Source of the DNA: Heptranchias perlo | Taxonomy: Eukaryota | Length of the DNA stretch: 64,000 nt | Assembly: GCF_035084215.1 (NCBI RefSeq) | Contig: NC_090354.1 | Span: forward strand, 24,614,001-24,678,000 | Direction: 5' to 3' | Shown here: positions 1,228 through 57,582 of the stretch, piece by piece | How positions within the stretch are numbered: the first letter of the stretch is position 1 | Layout: every line of letters starts with the position of its first letter | Made by a program: the position numbers and the translations under genes | The notes under the pieces: generated by a model | Told to the model about the DNA's origin: nothing | Database searches by the model: none | What the model saw: the letters and a program-made list of their open reading frames with translations, nothing else

Positions 1228-1663
1228 ACCCAGGACAGGATCCAGATTGTCCATCAAACACTGCATCACATCAACCAGATCTACAGTATGAACCTGGACT
1301 CAGTCACATGGCCCCAGGACAAGGTGGAAAACTTTCAGCTTCTCTTGGATCGGCAGCTCGAAGAGCTAGAGGAATGTGTCAAGAAACCGGTCTCAGAGTC
1401 CAGGCCGAGGAGAAACGATTCTATTCACAACTACTTCAGGAATCTGGAAACATTTCTCAAACAGAAGGTGGGACAATTGACTGTGTGATTATTGACAGTT
1501 CATTTCACCCAATTTAAATCTGTTCATTCTCTAATGTATTTCCCTGAATATTTCTCTTTTTTAGAGATTCAGTGTCTGCGCCTGGGAAATAATCCGCGCC
1601 GAGACCAGGGCCCGTTTACAACAGATCCTTTTCATAATGGCACAAATCAGAAGAAGGAAGTGA
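1228..1663 (+). CDS. IFN: Type I interferon copy 0 (divergent paralog), 3' part only: join(1228..1467,1565..1663); exons 1-2 lie upstream of the window
   Basis: Acceptor tgctcag|ACC at 1228, donor AAG|gtggga after 1467, acceptor ttttag|AGA at 1565, stop TGA 1661-1663. Translation [80 protein letters not shown] / [46 protein letters not shown] is the type I IFN signature. Confidence 0.93.
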
Positions 1664-2129
1664 AGACTTTGCAAAGACAATAGAGAATGGGAACAATTAA
1701 TATTTATTTAAAAGTCTTTCTATTTATAAAAAATATTTATATTTCAACAGACATTATATTGTAGTGCTGTAATGAGGCGATTTGCAGCCAAGTTTCTGAT
1801 GGAGAACAAGGAATGTCTTGATATTTTTCTATTTTCAATTATTTATTTTAATTTATTGATATTTATTGTTGTGATATGTTCCTGTGATGAATGTTAAATG
1901 TTTCACTGGGGGGAGATTGAGAAAATCCCGTTTCTGTTCCTTCGTTTATGGACTGGCAGCTGCTACAATGAAAATTTTCATTTTAGGTTCGCACTATAGG
2001 GCACCTTATTCACTGGCTGGTTTTCCAGTGTCAGCTCTCTGTACTTGCCCTCCCGGCTGACACTACTTTTGCTCTTCATCTCATCTGACTTCAGTCATAT
2101 TTATTGTCATGATGTCTTCATACAATAAA
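1664..2129 (+). promoter_or_regulatory. 3'UTR with AU-rich elements and poly(A) signal, copy 0
   Basis: ATTTA clusters at ~1700-1870; AATAAA at 2124-2129, duplicated at 2556-2561. Confidence 0.7.
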
Positions 2130-2132
2130 ATG

Positions 2133-4325: not shown

Positions 4326-5410
4326 TCTTATAATTGGAGACATTAAATGGAAAGAGACATTCTGAGATACTGAGAGGGGAGGAAGCTTGGTGGATCATAC
4401 GCAGAGTATAGAAGAGGAAATCAGATAATGAGCGGAAAGGACATCAGGCAATGAGTGGGGAGGGGAATGATTGGAGAGTGGGAATGAAAGTCTCTTATGT
4501 GGCATCTTATCCTGCAGCTTCTGAAAATCCATAACCATAACACTGAATACATTCCTTTCTTTATATGTGTGGCTTTGTTGAAAAAGTTAATTAAATTATC
4601 CAAACACAACCTGTCCTTTACTGCCCTTAATGGGCCCACATCTTTTCAAGTGTTCACTAATTTCATCCCAGATTATGAACTCAATATATTGGCCTGTCGC
4701 TGAGTTAAGATTAAAAGGCCTATTATTTCTTGCCACCCTCCAATCCTTTCATCTTTCAGCCACGTTAAAGTTTCAAACTCCCTTCCCCGTGCCCCATTTT
4801 TACTCTCTTTACACTTTCTTTTATATATTTATCTCAATACTTCCATTCTACATCCTCATTTTCAAATGAATAATACTGATGAGGGATCTTTGCCATTTAT
4901 TCACACTCAAGTGTAACATGTCCTCATTTATCTATATGTGCTCCCGGCCCTGCACAGACTATCATTACACTTTTTATTAACAAATTTCACCAGGCTTTAC
5001 CCACAGTCAGTTGATCAATATACATTTTTGATATGCAAGATTGGGAGACTTCAGAAACTCATTCCACAGAATCACCTCATTACCTGGAGTGAACCTTTAC
5101 CTTAGTTTTAGTATTCCCAGAAGGTGAAGAGCTCAAACTCAGCTCCAGATAGTCCCAGTGAGTGGAGACCGGAGTTCCGGCTGTGAATTCTACGCTGTCA
5201 TCCAGCCAGCTACTGGTGTCCGGTGGGTGTGGGTACTCCCCCTTTGTATGGGTTGTGGGAGCCCAAAAAGCCTTCCCGTTGTATAGGATCAATGACATTA
5301 TCAGCTGGTATAAAGGTGGTTACGGACATGGAAAGAATGTACCAGTGCGGCCTGTCAGACTGTGAATCCTTCCACGACTGCACACTATTCCCTCCAATGG
5401 GAGAATGTGA

Positions 5411-6503
5411 ATCATAGAAGTTACAACATGGAAACAGGCCCTTCGGCCCAACATGTCCATGTCGCCCAGTTTATACCACTAAGCTAGTCCCAATTGCCTG
5501 CACTTGGCCCATATCCCTCTATATCCATCTTACCCATGTAACTGTCCAAATGCTTTTTAAAAGACAAAATTGTACCCGCCTCTACTACTGCCTCTGGCAG
5601 CTCGTTCCAGACACTCACCACCCTTTGAGTGAAAAAATTGCCCCTCTGGACCCTTTTGTATCTCTCCCCTCTCACCTTAAATCTATGCCCCCTCGTTATA
5701 GACTCCCCTACCTTTGGGAAAAGATTTTGACTATCTACCTTATCTATGCCCCTCATTATTTTATAGACTTCTATAAGATCACCCATTAACCTCCTACTCT
5801 CCAGGGAAAAAAGTCCCAGTCTGTCTAACCTCTCCCTGTAAGTCAAACCATCAAGTCCTGGTAGCATCCTAGTAAATCTTTTCTGCACTCTTTCTAGTTT
5901 AATAATATCCTTTCTATAATAGGGTGACCAGAACTGTACACAGTACTCCAAGTGTGGCCTCACCAATGCCCTGTACAACTTTAACAAGACATCCCAAATC
6001 CTGCATTCAATGTTCTGACCAATGAAACCAAGCATGCCGAATGCCTTCTTCACCACCCTATCCACCTGTGACTCCACTTTCAAGGAGCTATGAATCTGTA
6101 CTCCTAGATCTCTTTGTTCTATAACTCTCCCCAACGCCCTACCATTAACGGAGTAGGTCCTGGCCCGATTCGATCTACCAAAATGCATCACCTCACATTT
6201 ATCTAAATTAAACTCCATCTGCCATTCATCGGCCCACTGGCCCAATTGATCAAGATCCCGTTGCAATCCCAGATAACCTTCTTCACTGTCCACAATGCCA
6301 CCAATCTTGGTGTCATCTGCAAACTGACTAACCATGCCTCCTAAATTCTCATCCAAATCATTAATATAAATAACAAATAACAGTGGACCCAGCACCGATC
6401 CCTGAGGCACACCGCTGGAAACAGGCATCCAGTTTGAAAAACAACCCTCTACAACCACCCTCTGTCTTCAGTCGTCCAGCCAATTTTGTATCCAATTGGC
6501 TAC
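5411..6503 (-). mobile_element. Young 5'-truncated CR1 LINE with uninterrupted 324-aa RT C-terminal frame (5484..6458)
   Basis: SGVPQGSVLGPLLF.IYINDLD...FADDTK...RPHLEYCVQFWSP...TRGH..K...WN.LP; 3' tail TTCTATGAT on the minus strand. Confidence 0.95.
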
Positions 6504-7379
6504 GAAAATATCACCCTCATGGCCAGAGGCTGCAACTACATCATGACAGTTGAAATATTAAACTTGAATTGCAAATGTGGACATCGCAATTTACAATGGG
6601 AAATGTTGACAATAAACTTCACCAAAATTTGTGACAACAGGAAGTAAGAGTTGTGGCCAAAATATTAGTCGATCTCCCATAGTGATTCACATGGGGAGTT
6701 CAATGGGCAGGTTTGCCCCCATATTCGTCCCCTTTGGATCCCTTACCATTTCATCTTCCCACCACTCCCTCCTCTACCTCCTACCAACTCACTCCCAACA
6801 ATATTTTCATTTGAACTATCTGAGCCAGTGGCCAGATTATGAAATTAGACTGTAAAGTTCAGATCGGCAAGAGATATAAATACCGGCATAGCAGTTTAGA
6901 ATGGAACAAAGTTAACACAAAAGGTTTGACACAAATGTGACATCACGAAGTCAAGTTATTTAGCAGGAAGTGTGCACAAATGTAAATGTATTCATACATT
7001 ATAGAAAATGTGCTCATAAGAGTCCTTGCTATTTCCTTGTGTGTTGCCCACCAGTGTTTTTCATACTCCCTCCTAAACTTCCTGATACCCCTTTCGCCTC
7101 CCTTCTGAACTATTAATAATTCTTACAGCATTAGCCTAATATTATAGACTTTATAAAATTTTGGTTTTACCTAAAGCTCTCTCCATAACCATTCACCCCA
7201 GGATTGGATGGGCAATTAAAATTGCAACACAGTAACTCCTCAATGTGATTGTTTAATTCAAGCCCAAATCACTCACTGCCGCTGTCCACAGGTGGTGCTG
7301 GTGGGATTCGGTCCCAGATTCACTCATGGAGAAGTTTTTGTTTGTAGTTACAGCTGAGAGTGATTTTGTGATGTTTCCC

Positions 7380-8436
7380 CAGTAACCGGGGTATCCCGGA
7401 TATCCCAAACCTTTTCCCAGCTCCCCCTCACTCCCTCTCAGGGTGATCCGTTCTGTTTACAAACACTCCTCAATTTCGGAAATGACGAGACTCGTCACTT
7501 TCCCTGAGGCACTTTCGCTTTCGGTGAAATTGACACAAGGCTCATTTTCACAGACAAACTGACACGGACACTTTCCCGGGAGAGAGAAAAGAAAGAAACG
7601 ATGAAAGAAAAGGAGTCGGTTCTTCCTTCGGATTCAGAGTCCGAGCAGATCAAATATTCTTGGAGAACAAAATCTCAAGAAACCTCCAAAAAAACAACCG
7701 AGAAATGAGGAACTTTTTATACTTAAAGAGCAGAATCTCCGACAGGGGAATCGGACAGACAGCATCAGACCGTGACCCTGCACTGTGAGCCGGGCTCTCT
7801 GCAATGTCCAGCCCGCGAAGTGTGAACAGTAAAAGCACGATGTGAGCACACCGGGGAGAGAGTGGATTTAAAAGGGAATCGCTCTCCATGGAGCCGAATG
7901 TCAGCACTAAAAGCCGCGGCACCGGGATCACCGCTGTCGGTGTCACTATAACCCGGATTATAAAATACAGCCCCCAATACATGTCCGCACTCCCCCAATA
8001 CAGACTCTGCCCCCGACACCACTTCAGTGCTGCCTTGATTCGAATCCAGACAACATTGAGCTGGGACCGAGCGCTGGTTGTGATCTTCGATGGGGGATTT
8101 TCCAGTCGCTGGTTCACGAATCTCCAGCTTTTAGATTCCTCACCTCAGAAAGGAACCGCACAAATTATTGCTCTCCTGCGGCCAGATTTCACTTTTCGAA
8201 TGTAATCCAAACATTCCCAGTCTCTCCTCTTAAAGCCGACAGCATGGCAGTGAGAGCTCCCAGCAGTATCCAGCCACACACCCACAGGACTCGGCAGCTC
8301 AGGCAACCGCTCCGGGATCACAAGCGGCGACATTTCGACTTCCAGAGTTTCATTCAGAACCGTTTTCGGAGCTGAACCGCGATCCGCTCAGTTTCTCATC
8401 CTTCAAATCGGCGTTTTACCCATGGGTCGGTTGAAC
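7380..8436 (+). promoter_or_regulatory. IFN promoter/5' region, copy 1 (IRF/ISRE-like and NF-kB-like sites)
   Basis: GGGGTATCCC 7388-7397 and GGGATTTTCC 8094-8103 match GGGRNWYYCC. ACTTTCGCTTTC 7511-7522 (reverse GAAAGCGAAAGT) and TTTCACTTTTC 8187-8197 (reverse GAAAAGTGAAA) are IRF-E/ISRE-like. GAAA repeats at ~7586-7612; TATAAAA 7959-7965; TTAAAG ~8230; locally CpG-rich. Confidence 0.75.
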
Positions 8437-11400
8437 ATGGATTTGGCGAGTGTTTGGAGATTTTGGATTGTGTGGGTCTTGTTTTCCGGGACCCTGAGTC
8501 TGGGCTGTGAGAGGCTGCAGTTACAGCAAGTTCTCAACAGAGAGACTCTGAGCAAACTGAATGAAATGGTGAGTTTAAACAGCATCAAAAGTCGGAACCG
8601 AACTATACAGGGTCTGTTTGTTATGAAAAGTTATATCAGGAGAAATAGTTTGGGGTTTTGTAACTTTGTCCAATTAATATCAACTGAGTCTTCAGTATGA
8701 ATTTGACGTCTTTATGGTTAGAGTGACTCTACTGTTACACTCGGTACACTCATTGATAGTGTCCTACAGCAAGAGTTCCCTGAAACCTGGAGGGGTAATT
8801 AGACCCCTGGTTGGAACAGAGGAATTAGACCTTGAGGCGACAGGGAGAATCGGGTAAAGAAGAGATGGGAATCAGGGGCTGAGTGGAGAGGGAACGTGAT
8901 CCTGATGGAAGACGTGGAATCAGACCATGAGGGGAGAAGGGAACTGAAAAACTGATGAACTGGGCAATCTTATATTGAGGGGAGGTTGAGTCAGATTCTA
9001 TAGGTTGACTCTTTTGAGTGGAGAAAGGAAGTGAATGACTGAAGGGGGGGGGGGGGTAATCTTATATTGAGGGGGGAGATTGAATCAGACCCCGGGGGAG
9101 TTGAATCAGATTCTAAGTGAAGGAGGGAATCAGTTCTGAGGAGAGAACGAAAACCGAACAGTGAGGAGTGGGGTACCCTGATATTAAGGAGGGAATCAGA
9201 TCTGAGGAGAGAATGGGAACTAGATACTGAGGAGACGGGAAGTCATGAATTGAGGAAAGAGAGGGAATCAGATATTGAGGGGTGGGAGAAATCGAGATTG
9301 AGGGGAATCAGATATTAAGGGAAGAGGGGAATGATGGTTTGAGTGGGAAACAGAAACGGAGGGATGGTGGAGATGAGACCAAATGGAGAGTGGGAGAATC
9401 AGATACAGAGGAGAGGGGAAATCAGGCCCTGGGTGGGGGGGGGGGGGTGGCACACCCTGATATAGAGAGGGGAGAATCAGAGACTGAGGGTAGAGGGAAA
9501 CCAATATTGTCTGGAAAGGGAGAATCTGATGTTGAGGGAAGGGAGCAATCAGACCCCGAGGGTAGAAAGGAAATGAAACACTGAAACACTGAGAGGGGTA
9601 ATTATATTGCGGGAGGGTGAATCAGACTCGGCGGGGGTGGGGGTGGGAGAACAGAAGAGACACTGAGGGGAGAGGGGGACACCCACAGGACTCGGCAGCT
9701 CCGGCGGTCGCTCAGTTTCTGATCCTTCAGATCGGCTCTTTACCCTGGGTCGTTTGAGCATGGTTTTGGCGAGTATTTGGAGATGTTGCATTGTGTGGGT
9801 CTTGTCCTGGACCTTGAGTCTGGTCTGCGAGAGGCTGCAGTTACCGCAAGTTCGAAACACACAGAATCTCAAGAAACTGAATGAAATGATGTGTTTAAAC
9901 AGCATGCAGAGCCGGATTCGAAACACACAAGGCCGGTTTGTTGTAAAAACTCATATCAGGAGAAATAGTTTGGCGTTTTATAACTTTATTCAATTAAAAG
10001 TCACTGATTCTCCTGTATTTCTCTCTGGGCTGTCTGTGACGGTGATGATCTTCTGTTTCAGGGCGGTCCCTTTCCCCGTCAGTGTGTTAAAGAGAGGCTC
10101 TCGCTGAAAACCAAGTCCTTGAACCTGGTGAAACTTTCAGGGGGTTTACAGGTGAGCGAACACTGGATATTATTTTATATTATTCAAGCAAGAGTTTGCT
10201 AGAAACTATGAGTAAGATCAACAATCTCATCAGAACTTTAATCAGGAAATTCAAACCCCGTGTTGGCCGCCCATTGATGTGAAAATGGCAGAAATATTCA
10301 CTCGCTCCAGCTCACTCTCTCTATCTCACTCCCTCTAATTATCTTACTCCGTCTAACCTCCTCAATCCATCCAACCATCTCACTCCTAATAATTCCATTT
10401 CCTTTAACTATCTGACTCCCTGTATTCATCTCACTCCGTCTTATCATCTCACTCCTAAACTGCGATGATTGGCTATGTGGTATGCATCATCACGGGCAGG
10501 TTAAATCATAGATTCATAGAATGATCCAGCACAGAAGGAGGCCATTTTGCCCATCGTGCCTGTGTCAGGTCTTTGAAAGAGCAATCCAATTAGTCCCACT
10601 CTCCTGCCCATTCCCCACAGCCCTGAAAAATATGCCCCTTCAATTGATACAGTTCCATTTTGAAAGTTATCATTGAATCTGCTTCCACCACCCTTTCAGG
10701 CAGTGCATTCCAGATCATAACAACTCGCTGCATAAAAACATTTCTTATCATCTCGCATCTGGTTCATTTGCCAATTGCCTTTAATCTGTGCCCTTTAGTT
10801 ACTGACCCATCTGCCACTGGAAAAGTTTCTCCTTATTTACTCTATCAAAACCCTTTCAACACCTCTATTAAAACTTACCTTAACCATCTCTGCTCAAGAG
10901 AACAACTCCCGATCTTCTAGTCACTCTACATACCTGAAGTCCCTCATCCCTGGTACCATTCTAGTCAATCTCTGCTGCACCATCTCTAAGGTTTTGGCAT
11001 CCTTCCGAAAGAGTGGTGCCCAGAATTGGACACAATATTACAGCTGGGGCTGAAACATTGATTTATAAAGGTAAAACACATTGTCCTTGCTTTTGTACTC
11101 TATGCATCTGTTTTTAAAGCTCAGGATCCTGTAAACTTTTTTAACAGTCTTCTCAACTTGTCCTGCCATCTCAAAGATTTGAGTACGTAAACCCCCAGGC
11201 CTCTCTGTTCCCGTCCCCCTTCAAAATTGTAACATTTAATTTATATTGCCTCTCCTCATTCATCCTACCAAACTGCATCACTTCACACTTCTCTGTGTTA
11301 AATTTCATCTGCCATGTGTCTGCCCATTTCACCAGTTTGTCTATGTTGTCCTGAAGTCTGTTACTATCCTCCTCACTGTTTCCTACAGTCTTGAGTTTCA

Positions 11401-13430: not shown

Positions 13431-13688
13431 AGACTTTCCAAAGACATGTTTAATAGAGACTGGCAACAATTAATATTTATTTAAAAGACCATCTATTTAT
13501 TAAAAAAAATTATATTTTAAAAGATGTTACCTTGTGTTGCTGTAAACAAGCGATTTGCAGCTAGGTGACTGATGAAGAAGAAGGAATGTCTTGATATTTT
13601 TCTATATTTGTTTATTTATTTTAATTTATTGATATTTATTGGTGTAATATTTATCTTGATGAAATGTTAAAGGTTTGACTACAATAAA
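13431..13688 (+). promoter_or_regulatory. 3'UTR with AU-rich elements and poly(A) signal, copy 1 (equivalents end at AATAAA 28284, 42929, 57835)
   Basis: Multiple ATTTA/TTATTTATT motifs (e.g. ATATTTATTTAAA, TTATTTATTTTAATTTATTGATATTTATT); AATAAA at 13683-13688. Typical cytokine mRNA instability elements. Confidence 0.8.
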
Positions 13689-14549
13689 ATTATACACTTT
13701 TTACACAATGTGTAAAGACAAAAATGAGAAGAGTAAACATGAAGATTTTCCAATGACTTGTTTAATTCAGACTAAGAATGATGATACTTTATGTTAAAGG
13801 CACTGAATTTCTAAAATATATTTTATGTACATGAAAAGTATTATTAATTTTACAATGTTGTCAATTTAGCTCAGCGGTAACACTCTGAGTCATAAGGTTG
13901 TTAGTTCCAGCCCCATTCCATAGGGAAACTGTTCCATTGCCATTCAGCTTTGTGAGGCTCCTTATTCCAGTTGCTGATCTTCCAGTGACAACTCTCTGCA
14001 CTGGATTGCCCTGCCAATACCCAGCTCGGTCACTGGATTACAGAGTGAAGTCAGGATTTCAAAGGTTGGGCTCCAGACTGATGCCCCCTGACCTTAACCC
14101 TGACCCGCTCTGACCTTTTAGTTTCTGCTCTCCCAGCGGCCAGCACTTCAACTCGTCTCAGGGTCATCTTAATTTATTGATATTTATCATCGTGATCTCT
14201 TCAACTAATGAAATGTTAAAGTTTTATACAATGCGTAATGTGAGTTCAAAAAGAAATATTAATTTATTGATATTTATTAAGAGTTGGGGAATAGACAATG
14301 TTTTTCTAAACTGAAAACTTTTTATACTGAATGAAAACGTGTGTGAAAATAAATTGTTTTAATGATAACACTTTTACTGGAGTGATATTCATTTCCCATT
14401 TGTATCTGTCAGTTTCTCATTATAAATGCTCTGGATTCTCCTCCCTGCTGCCTGTTACCGTGACTCCCTCTCCTCTGTATTATCTTCTCTCCACTGTCTG
14501 ATTGTTCCTCCCCGATCAAAGCATGTCAACCCCATTTGAACCCAATTTA

Positions 14550-15150
14550 CCATAAGGACATAAGAAATTAGAACATAAGAAATAGAAGCTGGAGTAGACC
14601 ATACAGCCCCTCGAGCATGCTCCGCCATTCAGCATGGCTGATCTTTGACATCAACTCCATTTTCCCGCCCGATCCACATATCACTTTACTCCCTTGAGTC
14701 CAAAAATCTATCTATCTCAGCCGTGAATATACACATCCTCTGCCCTCTGGGTTAGAGAATTCCAAAGATTCACAACCTTCCAAGTGAAGAAATTCCTCCT
14801 CATCTCAGTCCTAAATGCCCGACCCCTTCACCTGCAACTATGCCCCGTCCTTCTAGACTCTCCAGCCAGGGGAAATAACCTCTCAGCACCTACCCTGTCA
14901 AGCCCCCTCAGAATCTTATGTGCTTCAATGAGAGCACCTCTCATTCTTCTAAAATCCAGAGAGTACAGCCAGCCAACCTGAAAATGACCCATTTATACCT
15001 ACTCTCTGTTTTCTGTCTCTTCATCAATCATCCATGCTTACTAATATATTACCCCCAACCCTATGAACCCTTATCTTGCGTAACAACCTTTTAGGTGGCA
15101 CCTTATCGAATGCCTTTTGAAAATACAAATATATTACATCCACTGGTTCC
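14550..15150 (-). mobile_element. CR1 3' fragment of a different subfamily (ACATAAGA tail), in all units
   Basis: ACATAAGAAATTAGAACATAAGAAATAG tail, then reverse-strand CR1 3' sequence (GAAGAAATTCCTCCTCATCTC, CTACCCTGTCAAGCCCC). Confidence 0.7.
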
Positions 15151-15444
15151 ACTCTATCTCCTAGATACTACCACAGTTTTTCTTTTCAGCTATTCAACCC
15201 AATATTCCCTATTCTCCCTCTAAATGAGAGATGATCGAGCCTGAGGTGTTGAGCAGGAAAGGGGGAATTGATTCATAGAAGCATACAATCATAGAATCAT
15301 ACAGTACAATAGAGGCCATTCAGCCCATCATGCCTCTGCCAGCCCTTTGGTAGTGATATCCAATTAGTCCCATGCTCCAGCCCTTTCCCCATAGCCCTGA
15401 AAATGTTATTACCTTAAATCTGGGAGCTCTGATTACCGACTCTT

Positions 15445-20039: not shown

Positions 20040-20299
20040 GTGAGTGAGGCCAACTGTCTAGTGGCATCCCCTACGAACTGCACCACGCACTACACCCCTC
20101 ATCACCCACATACCTACAAACTCTTTCCATCTCTACTCAATACTTCCAATCAGATGCTTCCTCTCACCCTTAAACATTACCACTGTCGCAAGCCGCCCAC
20201 CCACAACTCACAGGCCACACACACTGGTAGCTATTCAACCATGACAGGCACATCAACCAGACATCCCGCTTTCTTGTAGGAGAAGGTAGCGCATACCAG

Positions 20300-44687: not shown

Positions 44688-47600
44688 AGAATCATATAGA
44701 ATGGTTACAGCACAGAAGGATGCCATTCGGCCCATCGAACCAGTGCTGGCTCTTTGTAAGAGCAATCCAGTTGGTCACATTCCCCCACTCTTTCCCCATA
44801 GCCCTGCAAATTTTTCCCTTCAAGTATTTATACAATTCCTTTTTGAAAGCTATGATTGAATCCACTTCCACCACACTTTTCGGCAGCGCATTCCAGATCA
44901 TAACAACTCGCTGCATAAAAATAGCTTTCCTCATGTCACCTTTGGTTCTTTTGCCAATCACCTGAATCTGTATCCTTTGATTCTCGACCCTTCTGCCAAT
45001 CGGAACTGTTTCTTTTTATTTACTTTATCTAAACCCTTCATGATTTTGAATGTTTCAATCAAATATCTGCTCCAAGGGGAACAACTACAGCTTCTCCAGT
45101 CTATCCAGGTAACTGAAGTCACTCCTCTCTGAAACCATTCTAGTAAATCTTTCTGCACGCTCTCTAAGGCCTTCACATCCTTCCTAAAGTGCGGTGGCCA
45201 GAATTGGACACAATACTCCAGTTGTGGCTGAAACAGTGTTTCATAAATGTTCAACATAACTTCCTTGCATTTGTACTCTATGACTCTATTTTTAAAGTTC
45301 AGGATCCCACTTGCCTTTTAAACCACTTTCTCAAGCTGTCCTGCCACCTTCAAAGATTTCTGCACATATACCTCCAGGTCTCTATATTCTTGCTCCTCTT
45401 TTAGAATTGTACCGTTTAGTTTATTTTGCCTCTCCTCATCTTTCTTGCCAAAATGCATCACTTTGCACTTCTCTGCACTAAATTTCTTCTGCCATGTCTT
45501 CGCCCATTCCACCAGTCTGTCTATGTCCTTTTGAATTCTATTATTATCCTCCTCCCTATTTCCCACACTACCAAGTTTTGTGCCATCTGCAAATTTTGAA
45601 ATTGGGCCCTGTACACCTAAGTCCAAGTCATTAATATATATCAAAAAAGCAGTGGACATAATACCGACCCCAGGGGAACACCACTGTATACCTTCCACCA
45701 GTCCAAAAAACAACAGTTCACCACTACTCTCTGTGTCCTGTCACTTGGCCAATTTCGTATACATGCTGCTGCTGCTCCTTTTATTCCATGGGCTTCAGTT
45801 TTGCTGACAAGCCTATTATGTGGCACTTTATCAAGTGCCTTTTGAAAGTCCATATACACAACATCAATCGCATTGCCCTCGTCAACCCTCACCAGCCTTT
45901 CTAGTAGCTCCTCTTTATCAATTTTTAGCCCATCCAGTATCGCAACTACCTCCTCTCCTACTGTGACTTTGGCAGCATCTGCTTCCTTGGTAAAGACAAA
46001 TGCAAGGATCTCATTTAGAACGTGGCCATGCCCTCTGCCTCCATGTGTAGATCTCATTTTTGGTCCCTAATTGACTCCATCCCTCATCTTATTACCCGTT
46101 TACTATTTATATGCCTATAGAAGATTTTGAATTCCCTTTTATGTTAGCCGCTAGTCTGTTCTCATACTCTCTCTTTGCCCCTCTTATTTCCTTTTTCACT
46201 TCTCCTCTGTACTTTCTATATTCCACCTGGTTCTCTCTTGTATTATCAACCTGACATCTGTCATACTGTCTATTTCTGTTTCATCTTACTCTACCTCTTC
46301 TGTCACGCAGGGAGCTCTGGCTTTGGTTTCCCTACCTTTCCCCCTCGTGGGAATGTACCAAGACTGTACCCGAACCATCTCCTCTTTAAAAGTCGCCCAT
46401 TGTTCGATTACAGTTTTGCCTGCCAATCTTTGATTCCAATTTATCCGTCCAGATCCGTTCTCAACCCACAGAAATTGGCCCTCCTCCAGTTAAGTATTTT
46501 TAATCCAGATTGCTCCTTCTCCTTTTCCAAAACTAATCTAAACCTTATGATCATTGTTCCCTAGATGATCCCCCACTAAAATTTACTCTACTTGACCCAC
46601 TTCATTCCCTAGAACTAGATCCAGCAATGCCTCCTTCCTCGTTGGCCAGAAATATACTGATCAAGAAAGTTCTTCTAAACACACTTAAGAAATTCCATCC
46701 CCTCTTTGCCATTTAAACTATTACTATCCCACACTATATTAGGATGTTTGAAGTCCCCCATTGTCACTACTCTATAGTTCTTCCACCTCTCTGTAATTTC
46801 CCTGCAAATTTCCTCCTCTATATCATTCACACTAGTTGGCGGCCTAAAGAATACACCCAGTAGTGTAATGGCACCTCTATTGTTTATATCTCTAACCAAA
46901 TAGATTCTGTCCTTGACCCCCTCAAGGACATCCTTTTTCTCCAGCACTGCAATATTCTCCTTAATCATACTGCCACCAATCCCCCACCCCACCTCCTTTT
47001 CTTACTTCAGATCTTTCCTGAACACCGTGTATCCAGGAATATTTAATACCCAATCCTGCCCTTTTTTGAGCCAGGTCTCCATTATCGCCACTACATCATA
47101 TTCCCATGTGACTATTTGCACCTGCAGCTCACCAACCTTATTTACCAGGCTTCGTGCCTTCACACACACACACACACTCTCAACCTATCTTAGACCTTCT
47201 CATCTTATCTCTTATACCGATCCCACCTAACACTGTACTATTTCTTACTCTAGTTCTATCTGTCTCTCACATTCCTTTGTGCACTTTGTTTCTCCTTTCT
47301 AATGCTTCTTGCTGGTGACCATCACCTTGCAAAATTAGTTTAAACCCTCCCCCACAGCACTGGTGACCCACCCCATGTGGACATTGGTCCCAGGTCTATT
47401 GAGGTGCAATCTGTTCATCTTGAACAGTTCCCTCCTGCCCCAGAACTGGTCCTGATGCCCCAAGAATCTGAAGCCCTCCCTCTTGCACCATATCTCTAGT
47501 CATGCATAAACTTGCCTTATCTTCCTCTTTCTGTATTCACTGGCGCATGGCACTGGGAGTAATCCAGAGATTACTACCTTTGAGGTCCTGCTTTTTAACT

Positions 47601-48570
47601 TCCTCCCTTGATCCTGAAACTCTGACCGCAGGACCTCATCCCCTTTCTTTCCTTTGTTGTTGGAACCCACACACGGACCACGACTTCTGGCTGTTTCTAT
47701 TCCCCCCACAGAATCTTCTGCACCCTCTCCATGATGTCCTTCCTGGTACCAGGGAGGCAACACAACATGTGGGACTCACATCGGCGATCACAGAAACGAC
47801 CGTCTGTCCCTTTGACTATCGAATCCCCGATGACGACTGCAGTTCTACACTTCACTCTGCCCCACTGTGCAATCCTTTGCCCCATGGTGCCACGCTCAGG
47901 ACTGCACTCCTTTGAGGTGTAGTCACCCTCACTGGTATTCAATGCTGAATTGAATACCAGTGAGAGTGCCACACACCCAGAAGATTCTTGCACTGCCTGC
48001 CTCTTCCTATCAGTTCGGTCGGCCACCCACTTGCTATCCTGAACTCTCTGTACCTGCAGAGTGACCACCTGCTGCAATGTACGATCCATGAAACCTTCAG
48101 CCTTCCTTATGCTCTGCAGTGACTCCAGCTGCCCCTCAATCTCAGAAACCCTCAGCTTAAGCTCGAGAAACTAGAGGCATTTCCTGCACGTGTGGCCCTC
48201 AAGGATACATGAAGCATCCTGAAACTCCAACACGGCACAGGGATTGCAGGCAATGAGTCTCAACTGTCATTCCATTATATTTAGAAAGCTTCTTTTTGCA
48301 AACTCCCTTTGGATACTTGCTTATTGTTAATTTACTTATTGTTTACTTATCCCAATTAACCTACCCTTAATCCGGGGTCACTCAGAGCTCGTCCTCTCTG
48401 TTCACTGTGGCGTCACTGTGATGTCACTCCCTCTGTTCTTCATGAATGGGAAAGGGTTCCTCCCCTGGTGCTCAGCACCGCTTATCACAACTCTGCTCCG
48501 CTCCTGCTTTTGCACTGATACCTGGGGCTCCTCCTATGGTGCTCAGCACCTCTTCTTTTGACTGAGTTAT
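44688..48570 (-). mobile_element. Near full-length decayed CR1, unit 3
   Basis: Duplicate of 15445-19320. Confidence 0.88.
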
Positions 48571-50818
48571 TCATCTATTTAGAGATAATGGGGGGAAAAT
48601 TGGATAAGGGCCGTTTTTGGGTGCAGGTAGTGCGATGCGCTATTACCCCACCCCCAATGACCCCTGAGCAGGCAGGACGTAAGTTTCCACCGGCCGGAGG
48701 ACTCACCTGCAATCAACGTTCCATTCTGGGCCTTGGACCTGCAATCAATGCAATTTGCATTTTCCACCACTGGGGCGAGCTCAATCTCTTAAAGGGAGGA
48801 TGTTTCTTCGAAATCTCTGAAAGTAGTTGGTATCTGTTATTTGCTGAAAATAACAGTCTGCTGTCTGCATGGAGTCTGAACAGAGTTCAGAGGTCTCACA
48901 CATAAAATACAGGTGCAGGTCCCATCCCTATGTTTACACACTGTAAGTTATGTTAAAACATTGAATAAAAGTTGCGCACAACTAAATCCAACATCCTAAG
49001 ATCTGCACGTCGGACCTCACCAATCTGAGTTGGTACCAGGCCTGCAAGAATGCGTGCACCAAGGTTATCTGCTGATGCACTAGAGACCTTGGTGCAAGGG
49101 GTGGACAGAAGGAGGGACATCCTATACAAGTGGGGGGGGGGGGGGGGTGCAAGAAGCATTCCAGACATATATCCAAAGGCTGTGGGAGGCAGTGGGGGAC
49201 GAATTTAATGCCAGGCACAAAACATCATGAACATGGATGCAATGCAGGAAGAAGTTCAATGCTTTGACATGAGTGGTCAAGGTAAGTGAGGCCAACTGTC
49301 TAGTGGCATCCCCTATGAACTGCACCATGCACAACACCCCTCATCACCCACATACCTACAAACTCTTTCCATCTGTATTCAATACTTCCAATCAGCTGCT
49401 TCCTCTCACCCTTAAACATTACCACTGTCGCAAGCCGCCCACCCACAACTCACAGGCTACACACACTGGTAGCTATTCAACCATGACAGGCACATCAACC
49501 AGAAATCCCGCTTTCTTGTAGGAGAAGGTGGCGCATACCAGGAGGCAGCAAGTGGGAGTGGCATTTAGCCCCTCAAGCCTGTTCCACCATTCAATGAGAT
49601 CATGGTGGACCTGAGACCTAACTCCATATACCTGCCTTAGCCCCATATGCCTTAATACCCTTGGTTCACAGAAATCTATCAATCTCAGCTTTAACATTCA
49701 CAAGTGAGCTCACATCAACTGCCGTCTGCAGAAGAGTGTTCCAAACATCTTTGCGTGTAGAAGCATTTCCTAACGTCACTCCTGCACACTCAGGCTCTAA
49801 ATGTTAGGCTATGTCCCCGGGTCCTAGTATTCAAGGCTAGGAGACCTCCAAAAACAGTTACAAATGTCTCGGCAGCAAGAAGCAATAATCCAGCCACTAA
49901 CCTGTAAATCCTGCATAGTCTCTTTAAATAGCAATCGAGGGGGGTCCTCCAGGCTTCAGCACGTCTGCCATTGGAAACAGTTTCTCCACATTTATTCCAT
50001 AAGAACCGTTCATGATTCTGAACATCTATATTATTCTTCTCTTTACCTTCTCGGCTCTAAAGACAACAACCCCAGCTTCTCTAGTCTCTCCATGTAACTG
50101 ATGTCCCTCATCCCTGATACCATTCTAGTCAATCACCACTGCACCCTCTCTAAGACCTTGACGTTCTTCTTAAGTATGGTGCCCAGAATTGGACATAATT
50201 CTCCAACTGAGGCCTAACCAGTGATTTATAAAGGTTCAGCATAACTTTCTTACTTTCATATCCATTCTAAAATTGAAGGCATTAAGTAGAAAGGGAAATT
50301 CCGAGATACCTAGTGGGGAGGGGATTTGGAGGATCAGTCAGGGATGACAGAAGGGAAAATCAGACAATGAGTGGAAGGGACATCAGGCAATGAGTGGGGA
50401 GGGGAATCAGTGGAAAGTGGGAATGAAAATCATTTGTGTGACATTTTATCCTACACATTTTGAAAATCTATAACTATAACTCTGACTACATTCCTTTATT
50501 TATATCTGTGACTTCCTTGAAAAAGTTAAATAATTATCCAAACACAACCTGTCCATTACAGATTCATGATGACTGCCCCTAATGACCCCATGTCTTTTCA
50601 AGTATTCATAAATTTCTTCCCAGATTATGGACTCCATAAATTGCCCTATAGCTGAGTTAAGACGAAAGGGACTTACTATTTCATGCCACCCTCCAATTCT
50701 TTCATCTTTCAGCCACATTAACGTTTCATCCTCCGTGTGTATTGCCCACCAGTGCATTTCAGACTCCCTTTTACACTTCCTGGTCCCCTTTTCGCCTCCC
50801 TTCTGAACTTTTAATAAT

Positions 50819-51256
50819 CATAGGGAGAGGTTAGACAGACTGGGACTTTTTTCCCTGGAGAGTAGGAGGTTAAGGGGTGATCTTGTAGAAGTCTATAAAA
50901 TAATGAGGGGCATAGATAAGGTAGATAGTCAAAATCTTTTCCCAAAGGTAGGGGAGTCTATAACGAGGGGGCATAGATTTAAGGTGAGAGGGGAGAGATA
51001 AAAAAGGGTCCAGAGGGGCAATTTTTTCACTCAAAGGGTGGTGAGTGTCTGGAACGAGCTGCCAGAGGCAGTCGTAGAGGCGGGTACAATTTTGTCTTTT
51101 AAACAGCATTTGGACAGTTACATGGGTAAGATGGGTATAGAGGGATATGGGCCAAGTGCAGGAAATTGGGACTAGCTTAGTGGTATAAACTGGGCGACAT
51201 GGACATGTTGGGCCGAAGGGCCTGTTTCCATGTTGTAACTTCTATGATTCTATGAT
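50819..51256 (+). mobile_element. Young 5'-truncated CR1 insertion unique to the unit 3/4 junction
   Basis: Near-identical reverse complement of 5411-5837; ends TTGTAACTTCTATGATTCTATGAT; absent at the homologous sites ~21585 and ~36186. Confidence 0.93.
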
Positions 51257-51540
51257 TAGCCTATTTTATAGGCAATTATTAAATTTCAGTTTTACTCTTA
51301 GCTCTCCCGATAACCATTGATCCCCAGCCTTAGAAGGTCGATCAAAAACTAAACGATTTGATGAAAAGATTTTCACCAAAACAGTATCTCTTTAAATTGC
51401 TGTCATGTGATTGTTTAATTCAAGCCCAAATCACTCACTGCCGCTGTCCACAGGTGGTGCTGGTGAGATTCGGTCCCAGATTCACTCATGGAGAAGTTTT
51501 TGTTTGTAGTTACAGCTGAGAGTGATTTTATGATATTCCC

Positions 51541-52596
51541 GAGTAACCGGGGTATCCCGGATATCCCAAACCTTTTCCCAGCTCCCCCTCACTCCCTCTC
51601 AGGGTGATCCGTTCTGTTCACAAACACTCCTCAATTTCGGAAATGACGAGACTCGTCACTTTCCCTGAGGCACTTTCGCTTTCGGTGAAATTGACACAAG
51701 GCTCATTTTCACAGACAAACTGACACGGACACTTTCCCGGGAGAGAGAAAAGAAAGAAACGATGAAAGAAAAGGAGTCGGTTCTTCCTTCGGATTCAGAG
51801 TCCGAGCAGATTAAATATTCTTGGAGAACAAAATCTCAAGAAACCTCCAAAAAACAACCGAGAAATGAGGAACTTTTTCTACTGAAAGAGCAGAATCTCC
51901 GACAGGGGAATCGGACAGACAGCATCAAACCGTGACCCTGCACTGTGAGCCGGGCTCTCTGCAATGTCCAGCCCGCGAAGTGTGAACAGTAAAAGCACGA
52001 TGTGAGCACACCGGGGAGAGAGTGGATTTAAAAGGGAATCGCTCTCTATGGAGCCGAATGTCAGCACTAAAAGCCGCGGCACCGGGATCACCGCTGTCGG
52101 TGTCACTATAACCCGGATTATAAAATACAGCCCCCAATACATGTCCGCACTCCCCCAATACAGACTCTGCCCCCGACACCACTTCAGTGCCCCCTTGATT
52201 CGAATCCAGACAACATTGAGCTGGGACCGAGCGCTGGTTGTGATCTTCGATGGGGGATTTTCCAGTCGCTGGTTCACGAATCTCCAGCTTTTGGATTCCT
52301 CACCTCAGAAAGGAACCGCACAAATTATTGCTCTCCTGAAGCTCGATTTCACTTTTCGAATGTAATCCAAACATTCCCAGTCTCCCCTCTTAAAGCCGAC
52401 AGCATCGCAGTGAGAGCTCCCAGCAGTATCCAGCCACACACCCACAGGACTCGGCAGCTCAGGCAACCGCTCCGGGATCACAAGCGGCGACATTTCGACT
52501 TCCAGAGTTTCATTCAGAACCGTTTTCGGAGCTGAACCGCGATCCGCTCAGTTTCTCATCCTTCAAATCGGCGTTTTACCCATGGGTCGGTTGAAC
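51541..52596 (+). promoter_or_regulatory. IFN promoter, copy 4
   Basis: Same motifs at offset ~+44160, with a cluster of substitutions next to the proximal IRF site. Confidence 0.75.
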
Positions 52597-55500
52597 ATGG
52601 ATTTGGCGAGTGTTTGGAGATTTTGGATTGTGTGGGTTTTGTTTTCCGGGACCCTGAGTCTGGGCTGTGAGAGGCTGCAGTTACAGCAAGTTCTCAACAG
52701 AGAGACTCTGAGGAAACTGAATGAAATGGTGAGTTTAAACAGCATCAAAAGTCGGAACCGAACTATACAGGGTCTGTTTGTTATGAGAAGTTATATCAGG
52801 AGAAATAGTTTGGGGTTTTGTAACTTTGTCCAATTAATATCAACCGAGTCTTCAGTATGAATTTGACGTCTTTATGGTTAGAGTGACTCTACTGTTACAC
52901 TCGGTACACTCATTGATAGTGTCCTACAGCAAGAGTTCCCTGAAACCTGGAGGGGTAATTAGACCCCTGGTTGGAACAGAGGAATTAGACCTTGAGGCGA
53001 CAGGGAGAATCGGGTAAAGAAGAGATGGGAATCAGGGGCTGAGTGGAGAGGGAACGTGATCCTGATGGAAGACGTGGAATCAGACCATGAGGGGAGAAGG
53101 GAACTGAAAAACTGATGAGGTGGGTAATCTTATATTGAGGGGAGGTTGAGTCAGATTCTATAGGTAGACTCTATAGAGTGGAGAAAGGAAGTGAATGACT
53201 GAAGGGGGGGGGGGTAATCTTATATTGTGGGGGGAGATTGAATCAGACCCCGGGGGAGTTGAATCAGATTCTAAGTGAAGGAGGGAATCAGTTCTGAGGA
53301 GAGAACGAAAACCGAACAGTGAGGAGTGGGGTACCCTGATATTAAGGAGGGAATCAGATCTGAGGAGAGAATGGGAACTAGATACTGAGGAGACGGGAAG
53401 TCATGAATTGAGGAAAGAGAGGGAATCAGATATTGAGGGGTGGGAGAAATCGAGATTGAGGGGAATCAGATATTAAGGGAAGAGGGGAATGATGGTTTGA
53501 GTGGGAAACAGAAACGGAGGGATGGTGGAGATGAGACCAAATGGAGAGTGGGAGAATCAGATACAGAGGAGAGGGGAAATCAGGCCCTGGGTGGGGGGGG
53601 GGGGGACATCCTGATATAGAGAGGGGAGAATCAGAGACTGAGGGTAGAGGGAAACCAATATTGTCTGGAAAGGGAGAATCTGATGTTGAGGGAAGGGAGC
53701 AATCAGACCCCGAGGGTAGAAAGGAAATGAAACACTGAGAGGGGTAATTATATTGCGGGAGGGTGAATCAGACTCGGCGGGGGTGGGGGTGGGAGAACAG
53801 AAGAGACACTGAGGGGAGAGGGGGACACCCACAGGACTCGGCAGCTCCGGCGGTCGCTCAGTTTCTGATCCTTCAGATCGGCTCTTTACCCTGGGTCGTT
53901 TGAGCATGGTTTTGGCGAGTATTTGGAGATGTTGCATTGTGTGGGTCTTGTCCTGGACCTTGAGTCTGGTCTGCGAGAGGCTGCAGTTACCGCAAGTTCG
54001 AAACACACAGAATCTCAAGAAACTGAATGAAATGATGTGTTTAAACAGCATGCAGAGCCGGATTCGAAACACACAGGGCCTGTTTGTTGTAAAAACTCAT
54101 ATCAGGAGAAATAGTTTGGCGTTTTATAACTTTATTCAATTAAAAGTCACTGTTTCTCCTGTATTTCTCTCTCTGGGCTGTCTGTAACGGTGATGATCTT
54201 CTGTTTCAGGGCGGTCCCTTTCCCCGTCAGTGTGTTAAAGAGAGGCTCTCGCTGAAAACCAAGTCCTTGAACCTGGTGAAACTTTCAGGGGGTTTACAGG
54301 TGAGCGAACACTGGATATTATTTTATATTATTCAAGCAAGAGTTTGCTAGAAACTATGAGTAAGATCAACAATCTCATCAGAACTTTAATCAGGAAATTC
54401 AAACCCCGTGTTGGCCGCCCATTGATGTGAAAATGGCAGAAATATTCACTCGCTCCAGCTCACTCTCTCTATCTCACTCCCTCTAATTATCTTACTCCGT
54501 CTAACCTCCTCAATCCATCCAACCATCTCACTCCTAATAATTCCATTTCCTTTAACTATCTGACTCCCTGTATTCATCTCACTCCGTCTTATCATCTCAC
54601 TCCTAAACTGCGATGATTGGCTATGTGGTATGCATCATCACGGGCAGGTTAAATCATAGATTCATAGAATGATCCAGCACAGAAGGAGGCCATTTTGCCC
54701 ATCGTGCCTGAGTCAGGTCTTTGAAAGAGCAATCCAATTAGTCCCATTCTCCTGCTCATTCCCCATAGCCCTGAAAAATATGCCCCTTCAATTGATACAG
54801 TTCCCTTTTGAAAGCTATCATTGAATCTGCTTCCACCACCCTTTCAGGCAGTGCATTCCAGATCATAACAACTCGCTGCATAAAAACATTTCTTATCATC
54901 TCGCATCTGGTTCATTTGCCAATTGCCTTTAATCTGTGCCCTTTAGTTACTGACCCATCTGCCACTGGAAACAGTTTCTCCTTATTTACTCTATCAAAAC
55001 CCTTTCAACACCTCTATTAAAACTTATCTTAACCATCTCTGCTCAAGAGAACAACTCCCGATCTTCTAGTCACTCTACATACCTGAAGTCCCTCATCCCT
55101 GGTACCATTCTAGTCAATCTCTGCTGCACCATCTCTAAGGTTTTGGCATCCTTCCTAAAGAGTGGTACCCAGAATTGGACACAATATTACAGCTGGGGCT
55201 GAAACATTGATTTATAAAGGTAAAACACATTGTCCTTGCTTTTGTACTCTATGCATCTGTTTTTAAAGCTAAGGATCCTGTAAACTTTTTTAACAGTCTT
55301 CTCAACTTGTCCTGCCATCTCAAAGATTTGAGTACGTAAACCCCCAGGCCTCTCTGTTCCCGTCCCCCTTCAAAATTGTAACATTTAATTTATATTGCCT
55401 CTCCTCATTCATCCTACCAAACTGCATCACTTCACACTTCTCTGTGTTAAATTTCATCTGCCATGTGTCTGCCCATTTCACCAGTTTGTCTATGTTGTCC

Positions 55501-57582
55501 TGAAGTCTGTTACTATCCTCCTCACTGTTTCCTACAGTTTTGAGTTTCATGTCATCTGTACACTTTGAAATTGTGCACTATATACGCAAGTCCAGGACAT
55601 TAAAATATATCAATAAGAGCAGCGGTCCTAACACTGACTCCTGGGGAACACCACTTTACACTTCCATCCAGTCTGAAAAACAACCGTTCACCACTGTTCT
55701 CTTCTTACTGTACCTTAGCCAATTTTACATTCATGCTGCAACTACCACCTTAATCCCATGAGCTTCAGTTTTGTTAACAAGTCGACTATGTGATACTTTA
55801 TCAAATGCCTTTTTAAAGTCCATATACACAACATCAACCACACGACCCTCATCAACTCTCTCTTACTTCATGAAAGAACTCAATCAGGTTACTTAAACAC
55901 GATTTGCCTTTAATAAATCCATGCTGCCTGTCATTTATTAACCGATTTTTTTCCAAGTGACAATTAATTTTGTCTAATTTTATTGTCTCTAAAAGTTGCC
56001 CCTACACCATTGATAGGCTGACTGGCCTGTTGTTGCCGGGTTTATCCCTCTCCCCCTTTTTTGTAACATTTGCAATCCTCCAGTCCTCTGGCATTGCTCC
56101 CATATCTAAGGAGGATTGGAAGATTGTGGCTGGAGCCTCCGTTATCTCCAACCTTACTTCCCTCAGCAACCTAGAATGCATCCCATCTGGACCGGGTGAC
56201 TTCTCTATTTTAAAAGCTGCTTATCTTTTAAGTACCTCCTTTTAATCTATTTTTATCCTATCCAATTTCTCCACTCCTTCCTCCTTTACTTTGATATTGG
56301 CAGCATCCCCTTCTTTTTTGAAGAAAGATGCAAAGTACTCGTTCAGTCCATCAGCCATTCCCTCTGCCACCACAAGATCTCCTTTTTTGGTCCCTGATCA
56401 GTTCCACCATTCTATTAACTACCCTTTTACTATTTATTTGCTTATGAAAGACTTTTATGTTACCCGTTAATCTGTTCCAATATACTCTCTTTGCCCCCTT
56501 TTTTTCCTTTTTCAGTCCTCCGCTGTACTCTATATTCAGCTTGGTTCTCCACTTTATTATCATACTGGTAGTTATAATAAGCCTCCTTTTTTTGTTTAAG
56601 TTTTATCTCCATATCTTTAGCCATCCAGGGACCTCAAGCTTTGGATGCCCTTCCTTTCCCCCAAATGGGAATGTGTCGAGTCTGTATCCAAACTATCTCC
56701 TCTTTGAAGGCCCCTATTGATCATTTACTGTTTTACCTGCCAATCTTTAAATCCAATCCACCTGGGCCAGATCCCCTTTCAACTCACTGAAATTAGTTCT
56801 CCTGCAGTTGAGTATTTTCATGTTTCATTGTTCCGTGTCCTTGTCCATAACCGCTCTAAAGGGGTTAAATTAGCCCACAGCGGAATGTGGTAGGAACCAG
56901 TTATGTATTAACCCAGTAATATTGCCAACATCAATCCATGTGCCGTAGCTTAAATTTTTGAAAAAGAAAAAACATCTCTCGGCTGTGGTTTTAAATTCAG
57001 ACACTTTACACATTTACACCATCATTAAAATGGGAAATAGCTGAGCTGCGGTGATGGGCTGTTAGGTTTGCCCAATATCGGGCCGGTGAAATAGGAACAG
57101 ACCCCCTCTAATGTCCTTGTGTGTATTTTGCTCAGAACCAGGACAGGATCCAGATTGTCCATCAGACACTGCGTCACTTCATCAAGATCTACAGCATGAA
57201 CCTGGGCTCAGTCACATGGCCCCAGGACAAGGTGGAAAACTTCCGGCTTCTCCTGGATCGGCAGCTCGAAGAGCTGGAGGAATGTGTCAAGAAACCGGGC
57301 TCAGAGTCCAGGCCGAGGAGAAACGCCGCCATTCACAGATACTTCAGGAAACTGAGAAAATTTCTCAAACAGAAGGTGGGACAATTGATATTTGACTGTT
57401 TGGTTACTGACAGATAGTTCATTTCACCCAATTTAAATCTGTTCATTCTCTAATGTATTTTCCTGAATATTTCTCTTTTTCAGAGATTCAGTGACTGCGC
57501 CTGGGAAATGATCCGCGCTGAGACCAGGGCCCGTTTACAACAGATCCTTTTCATAACGGCACAAATCAGAAGAAGAAACTGA
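52597..57582 (+). CDS. IFN: Type I interferon copy 4, 186 aa: join(52597..52728,54210..54299,57136..57375,57484..57582)
   Basis: Same splice sites and frame; variants ETLR, CVKER, NQDR, MNLGS, IHRY, RFSDCAWEMIR. Confidence 0.95.
53906..54034 (+). pseudogene. Duplicated IFN exon 1b, unit 4
   Basis: As unit 1; donor replaced by ATGTGT. Confidence 0.85.

What the first reader, a model, noticed from the sequence alone, without database searches (positions are those of the whole stretch)
1228..57582. Recently expanded tandem array of intron-containing, 4-cysteine type I interferon genes (at least 5 copies)
Seen: four intact spliced 186-aa IFN genes in ~14.6-kb near-identical units, plus an older divergent paralog; the array runs off both window ends. 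Established: mammalian IFN-alpha arrays are intronless, whereas fish and many amphibian type I IFNs have introns. Inference: this is a lineage-specific, apparently ongoing amplification of whole intron-containing IFN genes, probably in a cartilaginous fish. Such an array is likely copy-number variable and easily collapsed or missed in annotation.
Basis: partly seen in the sequence, partly recalled or inferred. Interest (0 to 1): 0.85.

Follow-up and report, generated by a model that had tools for sequence, protein, structure and literature searches.

The report
Mosaic shark interferon gene tandem array
A shark chromosome carries four near-identical 14.6-kb copies of an intron-containing antiviral interferon gene, already annotated and of a kind common in sharks, whose back half has likely been exchanged by gene conversion with a far older sister gene, which would mislead family trees built from whole proteins.

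Summary
The array is real but largely ordinary. Four units of 14.5-15.1 kb (0.8-1.5% apart) each hold an intact 4-exon, 186-aa, 4-cysteine type I interferon. They lie in a 16-gene cluster of about 230 kb next to growth hormone. The spliced proteins match database proteins labelled Heptranchias perlo, so the genes are not missed in annotation. The 3-intron layout is published for cartilaginous fish, and other sharks and rays have similar or larger expansions. Contig depth gives at least as many units as assembled.

Exons 3-4 are almost identical (dS 0.06-0.09) to those of two neighbouring genes whose exons 1-2 (dS about 0.7) belong to a lineage shared by sharks and rays. Trees of the two halves conflict (AU p<0.001), and a unique intron piece suggests transfer into the array. 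Each copy also uses an upstream duplicate of promoter and exon 1, and its original exon 1 has lost the splice donor. Exon 3 encodes helices B-D, the face that binds IFNAR1 in mammals. My literature searches found no description of this half-gene exchange in sharks.

The parts
1228..1467 (+). Exon 3 of older paralog g05 (its exons 1-2 lie 1.5-4.5 kb left of the window)
   Evidence: PF00143 E 9e-13
1565..1663 (+). Exon 4 of g05 with stop
5409..6495 (-). Young non-LTR retroelement 3' fragment just left of the array
   Evidence: RVT_1 E 3e-14; about 98% to other copies
7247..21746 (+). Unit A, 14,500 bp
7247..8867 (+). Upstream promoter + exon 1 cassette, present before 10 genes of the cluster; IRF-E-like (7513), TATA-like (7959) and NF-kB-like (8093) motifs, no chance control
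8437..8568 (+). Gene A exon 1 (upstream copy, used): signal peptide + helix A
9760..9888 (+). Gene A original-position exon 1; donor GT>AT, 70% aa, upstream promoter homology lost
10062..10151 (+). Gene A exon 2: AB loop
10506..12704 (-). Old LINE-like insertion filling intron 2, shared by the 11 L-type genes
   Evidence: weak RVT_1 hit E 0.002
12705..13481 (+). Tract shared at 97% with F-type gene g13: unique intron piece 12705-12935, exon 3, intron 3, exon 4, about 50 bp of 3' UTR
12984..13223 (+). Gene A exon 3 (canonical exons 3+4 fused): helices B, C, D
   Evidence: PF00143 E 5.7e-13
13332..13430 (+). Gene A exon 4: last helix, stop; 7 ATTTA within 300 nt downstream, AATAAA at 13683
21747..36346 (+). 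Unit B, 14,600 bp; exons 22937-23068, 24659-24748, 27585-27824, 27933-28031; dead exon 1 24355-24483
36347..51406 (+). Unit C, 15,060 bp; exons 37537-37668, 39250-39339, 42230-42469, 42578-42676; dead exon 1 38946-39074; private young retroelement piece near 50822-51250
51407..64000 (+). Unit D (14,493 bp, ends 1.9 kb past the window); exons 52597-52728, 54210-54299, 57136-57375, 57484-57582; dead exon 1 53906-54034

Best explanation
This is a four-unit tandem array of intact 3-intron, 4-cysteine type I interferon genes in the growth-hormone-linked IFN cluster of a shark, likely produced by unequal crossing-over and likely raising the dose of secreted antiviral interferon, and its genes are mosaics whose exons 3-4 were likely homogenised by gene conversion with an ancient paralog. 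Shown: the units, gene models, family, fold match, neighbours, and the ten-fold gap in synonymous divergence between the two gene halves. Inferred steps: (1) an L-type gene gained an upstream duplicate of promoter and exon 1, and its original exon 1 lost its promoter and donor; (2) a tract of about 0.8 kb from late intron 2 to the 3' UTR was exchanged with the F-type genes g12/g13, at least once from F into the array's ancestor; (3) the 14.6-kb unit then multiplied between the g05 and g10 units and keeps exchanging sequence among copies. The proteins would signal through an IFNAR1/IFNAR2-type receptor after virus sensing (established for the family, untested here).
For: Family and fold: pLDDT 85.8; 16 of 16 matches at E<=0.001 are type I IFNs. 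Locus: growth hormone exon 159 kb from the cluster and a sodium channel gene 250 kb further. Copies real: in run X2, depth is about 15-16 per assembled copy over six window contigs with 31-mer counts of 1 to 7.5, and an exact-match unique contig elsewhere in the locus sits at 7.07. Splicing: exon 3-4 joint (108 nt, GT..AG) in X5 and X7, and array-type exon 2 joined to exon 3 in X7 (runs only guessed to be RNA). Conversion: g12 vs A-D dS 0.69-0.72 in exons 1-2 and 0.06-0.09 in exons 3-4; intron 3 differs by one base; tract with unrelated flanks; F clade 100/100 and 100/98 on the N-half but rejected on the C-half, p-AU 6e-5 and 9e-4. Exchange among units: AB, AC and AD site patterns interleave.
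Against: Direction rests on a 35-45 bp diverged homolog that beats shuffles in g01, g04, g05, g10, g11 (g03 by one point) but not in g02 or A-D. On the C-half, F is closer to its own species' L genes than to other species' F genes in only 3 of 9 taxa, so recent conversion is not general. No DNA of other sharks was compared. The contig depth figure is a rough measure from one sample and differs two-fold within the locus. No induction data; dosage benefit is assumed; dN/dS among A-D rests on 0.5-4 synonymous changes and says nothing.
Confidence: 0.82

Rival explanations
1. The shared 3' half arose the other way round or once only: g12/g13 are chimeras made when an old F-type 5' half received array-type exons 3-4, and the array genes are plain L-type duplicates.
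For: g12/g13 C-halves nest among all the genome's L genes, including g01, g02 and g04/g05/g10, which lack the 283-bp piece; L donors outnumber F 11 to 2.
Against: The unique intron piece runs on without a break from F-specific intron 2 and sits between the LINE end and the last 48 bp only in g03 and A-D; L genes keep their own diverged homolog upstream of the LINE. Both directions probably occurred.
Confidence: 0.3
2. The 3' halves are alike because purifying selection on helices B-E is stronger than on helix A and the AB loop, with no exchange.
For: C-halves are more conserved than N-halves across species.
Against: Synonymous sites, intron 3 and 231-283 bp of intron 2 are 97-100% identical too, and C-halves group by lineage, not by paralog.
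Confidence: 0.03
3. The array is partly an assembly artefact in the other direction: it is collapsed about two-fold, so the animal has about 8-10 units per haplotype.
For: In X2 the unique flanks of g12 have depth 7.07 and 8.34 and the g12/g13-shared contig 15.4, whereas window sequence has about 15.5 per assembled copy.
Against: The window's unique junction 6616-7272 and the 10-copy cassette scale at the same 15, so a much larger block would have to be doubled; a g12/g13 segment on one haplotype explains the data as well. No genome-wide baseline was measured.
Confidence: 0.25
4. The four units are stacked haplotypes or duplicated reads, and the true copy number is lower.
For: Units differ by only 0.8-1.5%.
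Against: Four distinct units with private indels and four different proteins. A contig at depth 7 must be at least one haploid copy, so unit depths of 63-87 mean at least 4-5 units per haploid genome.
Confidence: 0.04

Closest known systems
Cartilaginous-fish type I IFN cluster at the growth hormone/CD79 locus (elephant shark; PMC5332411, passages seen)
   Same: Tandem genes, 4 exons/3 introns with intron 3 lost, 4-cysteine form, linked to growth hormone.
   Different: 16 genes instead of 3; a four-unit array at 98.5-99% identity; duplicated first exon; half-gene exchange. CD79B was not located here.
Annotated IFN-alpha-like gene sets of other sharks and rays
   Same: Lineage-specific near-identical copies; 90% clusters of 9 (Heterodontus), 10 and 7 (Mustelus), 14 (two Scyliorhinus), 22 (Cetorhinus representative) and 24 (Hypanus representative).
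   Different: Which subtype expanded differs (F-type in Mustelus and Scyliorhinus, L-type here); F/L identity in the C-half is 97% here against 59-87% elsewhere.
Human IFNA cluster with gene conversion (PMC3161012, passages seen)
   Same: Conversion homogenises paralogs within a species; more than 70% of coding bases were involved.
   Different: Those genes are intronless; here the tract follows exon structure, leaves exons 1-2 untouched and joins paralogs older than the shark-ray split.
Teleost IFN genes with alternative 5' ends (PMC5332411, passage seen)
   Same: More than one possible first exon or 5' end.
   Different: Teleost forms drop the signal peptide and stay inside the cell; here both first exons encode a signal peptide, and in A-D one is dead.

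Membership tests
Type I interferon | Match to PF00143 above the curated cut-off | tested here: met
   102-105 bits against cut-off 26.8 for the proteins of A-D
Type I interferon | Helical-bundle IFN fold with a straight last helix | tested here: met
   Model pLDDT 85.8, last helix 158-185 unbroken; best fold matches are carp, zebrafish and human type I IFNs
Type I interferon | N-terminal signal peptide | tested here: inconclusive
   Hydrophobic helix 3-20 before Cys24; no signal-peptide predictor was run
Type I interferon | Virus-inducible, signals through IFNAR1/IFNAR2, antiviral | not testable with these tools
   Only promoter-like motifs without a chance control and AU-rich 3' UTR motifs
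Cartilaginous-fish type I IFN genes | 4 exons/3 introns, canonical intron 3 lost | tested here: met
   definition from PMC5332411; joints
Cartilaginous-fish type I IFN genes | Linked to growth hormone and CD79 | tested here: inconclusive
   Growth hormone met; the ITAM search for CD79 found nothing anywhere and is uninformative
4-cysteine (4C) type I IFN | Four conserved cysteines in the mature peptide | tested here: met
   Cys 24, 52, 124, 159; disulfide pairing not measured
IFN-f lineage of PMC6640115 | Groups with teleost and amphibian IFN-f in a family tree | not tested
   No teleost IFN-f sequences were in hand; the paper itself gives PP 0.53
Gene conversion tract | Segment far more alike at neutral sites than its flanks, with conflicting trees | tested here: met

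The most novel reading that the evidence does not exclude
Shark and ray type I interferons evolve as two-part modules. Two N-terminal lineages (F and L; helix A plus AB loop, the IFNAR2-facing part) have been kept apart since before sharks and rays split because they address different IFNAR2-type chains, while the exon made by loss of intron 3 (helices B-D, the IFNAR1-facing part) is repeatedly copied across paralogs so that all ligands track one evolving IFNAR1. This array would be the latest product: an L front end on an F-derived back end, behind a newly spread promoter cassette.
Probability: 0.25. Interest if true: 0.72.

Novelty: new variant of a known kind. Interest (0 to 1): 0.45.

Why it matters
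The array alone adds one more case of a common pattern. The mosaic structure matters more. PMC6640115 (sections read) favours birth-death over concerted evolution for type I IFNs and stresses how unstable their trees are; here both processes act on different halves of the same gene, so whole-protein trees of shark IFNs mix two histories. It also defines two elasmobranch IFN lineages that automatic names hide, and gives natural chimeras (g12 and gene A are 98% identical in exons 3-4 but 60% in exons 1-2) with which receptor choice can be tested directly.

Tried and rejected
Searches used exon 3 in the wrong frame; their results are void and were repeated. ITAM search for CD79B: no match anywhere, uninformative. 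The ORF listing upstream was cut and only served to find the growth hormone exon. No RNA holder is on record; X5-X7 are guessed RNA. They did not cover F-type exons 1-2, which is no evidence of silence. Positive selection among A-D: too few changes to test. A working alternative donor for the dead exon 1: three donor-like sites in frame, two too close to the acceptor and one weak; not supported. No second IFN locus was found in the genome (16 of 16 exon-3 matches and all 18 PF00143 matches lie on C33), but only top candidates are scored, so a distant locus is not excluded. Genomic DNA of other sharks was not compared, which leaves tract boundaries and direction outside this genome open. Literature: searches returned nothing; 49 one unrelated paper; others listed no paper on half-gene exchange or large IFN arrays in sharks. 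PMC6603160 and PMC13176653 (term look-ups) do not treat shark IFNs. Subscription journals are mostly not held, and the supplements of PMC6640115 (Table S2, trees) were not read and may bear on novelty. Earlier scan findings: none.
Full report
OBSERVATION. A self-comparison shows repeats at about 14.6 kb spacing and 97.6-98.9% identity. Aligned end to end, units A-D measure 14,500, 14,600, 15,060 and 14,493 bp and differ by 0.83-1.47% substitutions and 10-24 indels. Each holds a gene of four exons (132, 90, 240, 99 nt) with GT-AG introns, giving 186 aa with Cys at 24, 52, 124 and 159. The four proteins all differ (7 codons with amino-acid changes, 4 silent-only). The window's left end holds exons 3-4 of an older paralog, g05.

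IDENTITY. Exon 3 alone matches PF00143 at E 5.7e-13 and zebrafish IFN best among solved structures; whole proteins score 102-105 bits. The predicted model (pLDDT 85.8) matches type I IFNs only (16 of 16 at E<=0.001). All 33 hits are shark or ray proteins. Gene models A, B and C are identical to database proteins labelled Heptranchias perlo, and D differs by five upstream residues, so the genes are annotated. PMC5332411 (passages) states that cartilaginous-fish IFN genes have 4 exons and 3 introns, with intron 3 lost, and lie in tandem beside growth hormone and CD79. A growth hormone exon lies 159 kb from the cluster and a sodium channel gene beyond it.

THE CLUSTER. The window is G000:C33:24,614,001-24,678,000. 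Sixteen exon-3 matches span about 225 kb. Of 14 genes modelled, 13 have at least one intact form and g11 is broken; g15 and g16 were seen exon by exon only. The 14.6-kb array has exactly four units, sits between the 93-94% identical g05 and g10 units, and has a fifth inverted copy (g03, 96-97%) to the left. Sites that pair A with B, A with C and A with D interleave along the unit, as expected from repeated unequal exchange. The mechanism is inferred.

IS THE COPY NUMBER REAL? Contigs of runs from one sample were laid on the window and compared with 31-mer counts in the assembled region. In X2, depth was 14.9 at count 1.0, 62.7 at 4.0, 69 at 4.2, 65.5 at 4.35, 86.7 at 5.4 and 117 at 7.5; two further contigs gave 68.7 at 3.8 and 32.9 at 1.6. 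X1 was noisier (32-74 per copy). About 45 kb beyond the window, unique flanks of g12 had depth 7.07 and 8.34, and the part shared by g12 and g13 had 15.4. A sequence that is present has at least one haploid copy, so the units are at least as many as assembled. Either the g12/g13 segment is on one haplotype, or the array block is collapsed two-fold. The tool warns that these depths are rough, and X1/X2 may be the assembly's own sample.

EXPRESSION. In runs only guessed to be RNA, the exon 3-4 joint (108 nt, GT..AG) appears in X5 and X7, and an X7 contig joins array-type exon 2 to exon 3. An X5 contig of depth 2.62 lies exactly on exon 2; a row of the same depth carries a base typical of the upstream exon 1, 15 bases from the end of that exon. 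I infer one spliced contig; the joint row itself was not displayed.

NOT RARE. Clusters at 90% identity hold 9, 10, 7, 14 and 9 members for Heterodontus, Mustelus (two), Scyliorhinus (two species) and Chiloscyllium, and 22 and 24 for Cetorhinus and Hypanus representatives (members not listed). PMC6640115 (abstract, passages, sections 16 and 21) already notes a lineage-specific expansion in cartilaginous fishes.

MOSAIC LAYER 1: EXONS 3-4. Genes g12 and g13 (F-type) are 75-77% and 64-70% identical to the L-type genes in exons 1 and 2, but 97-98% identical to A-D in exon 3. For g12 against A-D, dS is 0.69-0.72 in exons 1-2 and 0.06-0.09 in exons 3-4, and intron 3 differs by one base, which selection cannot explain. 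The tract runs from 279-331 bp before exon 3 to about 50 bp after the stop, with unrelated flanks. Both junction types occur in X2 contigs. Trees: with 24 of the 33 proteins (partial, fused and own-species rows left out) and 11 own models, the 9 F-type N-halves form one group (100/100), rejected for the C-halves (p-AU 6.4e-5). With 35 rows picked by hand from 103, rays included and signal peptides removed, 11 F rows group at 100/98 and are rejected on the C-half (p-AU 9e-4); there ray F joins ray L (95/91), sawshark F joins sawshark L (98/95) and this genome's genes join each other (91/92). The F label was set from N-terminal sequence, so the first result is partly by construction; the conflict is not. 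Against generality: on the C-half, F is nearer its own species' L than another species' F in 3 of 9 taxa (97 vs 82 here, 83 vs 75, 82 vs 80), while on the N-half it is nearer foreign F in 9 of 9.

DIRECTION. All 11 L genes share an old LINE-like insertion in intron 2. In g01, g02, g04, g05, g10 and g11 it is followed directly by the last 48 bp; in g03 and A-D a 231-283 bp piece intervenes that is 98-100% identical to g13's intron and has 7 full matches in the genome, all in this locus. L genes keep a diverged 35-45 bp homolog of that piece's end just upstream of the LINE; it beats 100 shuffles clearly in g01, g04, g05, g10 and g11, by one point in g03, and not in g02 or A-D. I read the piece in A-D as imported from F (about 65%). 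Exchange the other way is also needed to explain why all L genes are closer to F in exon 3 than in exons 1-2.

MOSAIC LAYER 2: FIRST EXON. Ten of the 11 L genes have two copies of exon 1. The downstream copy sits 169-176 bp before exon 2, as the single exon 1 of g01 does. In g03 and A-D it has GT>AT at the donor and has lost upstream homology beyond 52 bp; in g02, g04 and g05 both copies are intact. The 1.6-kb upstream cassette is 94-99% identical among the ten genes, whose intron 2 is 80-99% identical, consistent with later spread or homogenisation, though constraint on a promoter could contribute. It carries IRF-E-like, TATA-like and NF-kB-like motifs (consensus recalled; no chance control).

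STRUCTURE AND FUNCTION. In the model, exon 1 is signal peptide plus helix A, exon 2 the AB loop, exon 3 helices B-D and exon 4 the last helix. [quoted passage not shown] The split between kept and exchanged halves thus roughly follows the two receptor faces, but the last helix is exchanged too, and short intron 3 and tract length alone could explain the pattern. This is a hypothesis.

VERDICT. The array is a new member of a known kind and was overrated as such. The half-gene exchange between two ancient lineages and the replaced first exon are well supported in this genome and were not found in the nine literature searches run (one search concerned receptor contacts). Conversion in IFN clusters is known in primates (PMC3161012, passages). 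Novelty: new variant of a known kind; interest 0.45.

Noticed in passing
L042, L043, L044 (G000:C11:61.80, 61.87, 61.94 Mb): Three tandem copies, 97-99.5% identical over 3 kb, of a class II cytokine receptor domain whose one tested exon matches IFNAR1 best (E 4.7e-7, IL-10RB 4.5e-4): a possible recent amplification on the receptor side.
   Followed up: partly
L018:2760-6230 (g12 and flanks): Contig depth here is half that of the window per assembled copy: one-haplotype segment, allelic g12/g13, or a collapsed array.
   Followed up: partly
window 7848-8527: Contigs of X6 (guessed RNA) cover the cassette from upstream of the TATA-like motif at 7959 into exon 1; start site unclear, may be DNA.
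   Followed up: no
G000:C33:24,740,556-24,778,174 (g14, g15, g16): Three more divergent IFN genes (exon 3 45-46% aa to A); g14 has an L-like exon 1 (77% aa) on a very divergent 3' half and five cysteines, possibly another chimera.
   Followed up: no
G000:C33:24,692,543-24,697,769 (g11): Broken IFN gene: frameshift in the upstream exon 1, stop and frameshift in exon 3, deletion in exon 4.
   Followed up: partly
window 15441-18926, - strand, and matching places in B-D: Old, decayed LINE-like element in the spacer of every unit; retroelement pieces fill much of each unit.
   Followed up: partly
exon 3, codons 138-140 (window 1417-1425 in g05): A potential N-glycosylation site is present in g02, g05 and g10 but absent in A-D.
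   Followed up: no
L033:775-1319: Exons of a gene between growth hormone and the IFN cluster that look like RDM1 (recalled resemblance, no call tested it; seen).
   Followed up: no
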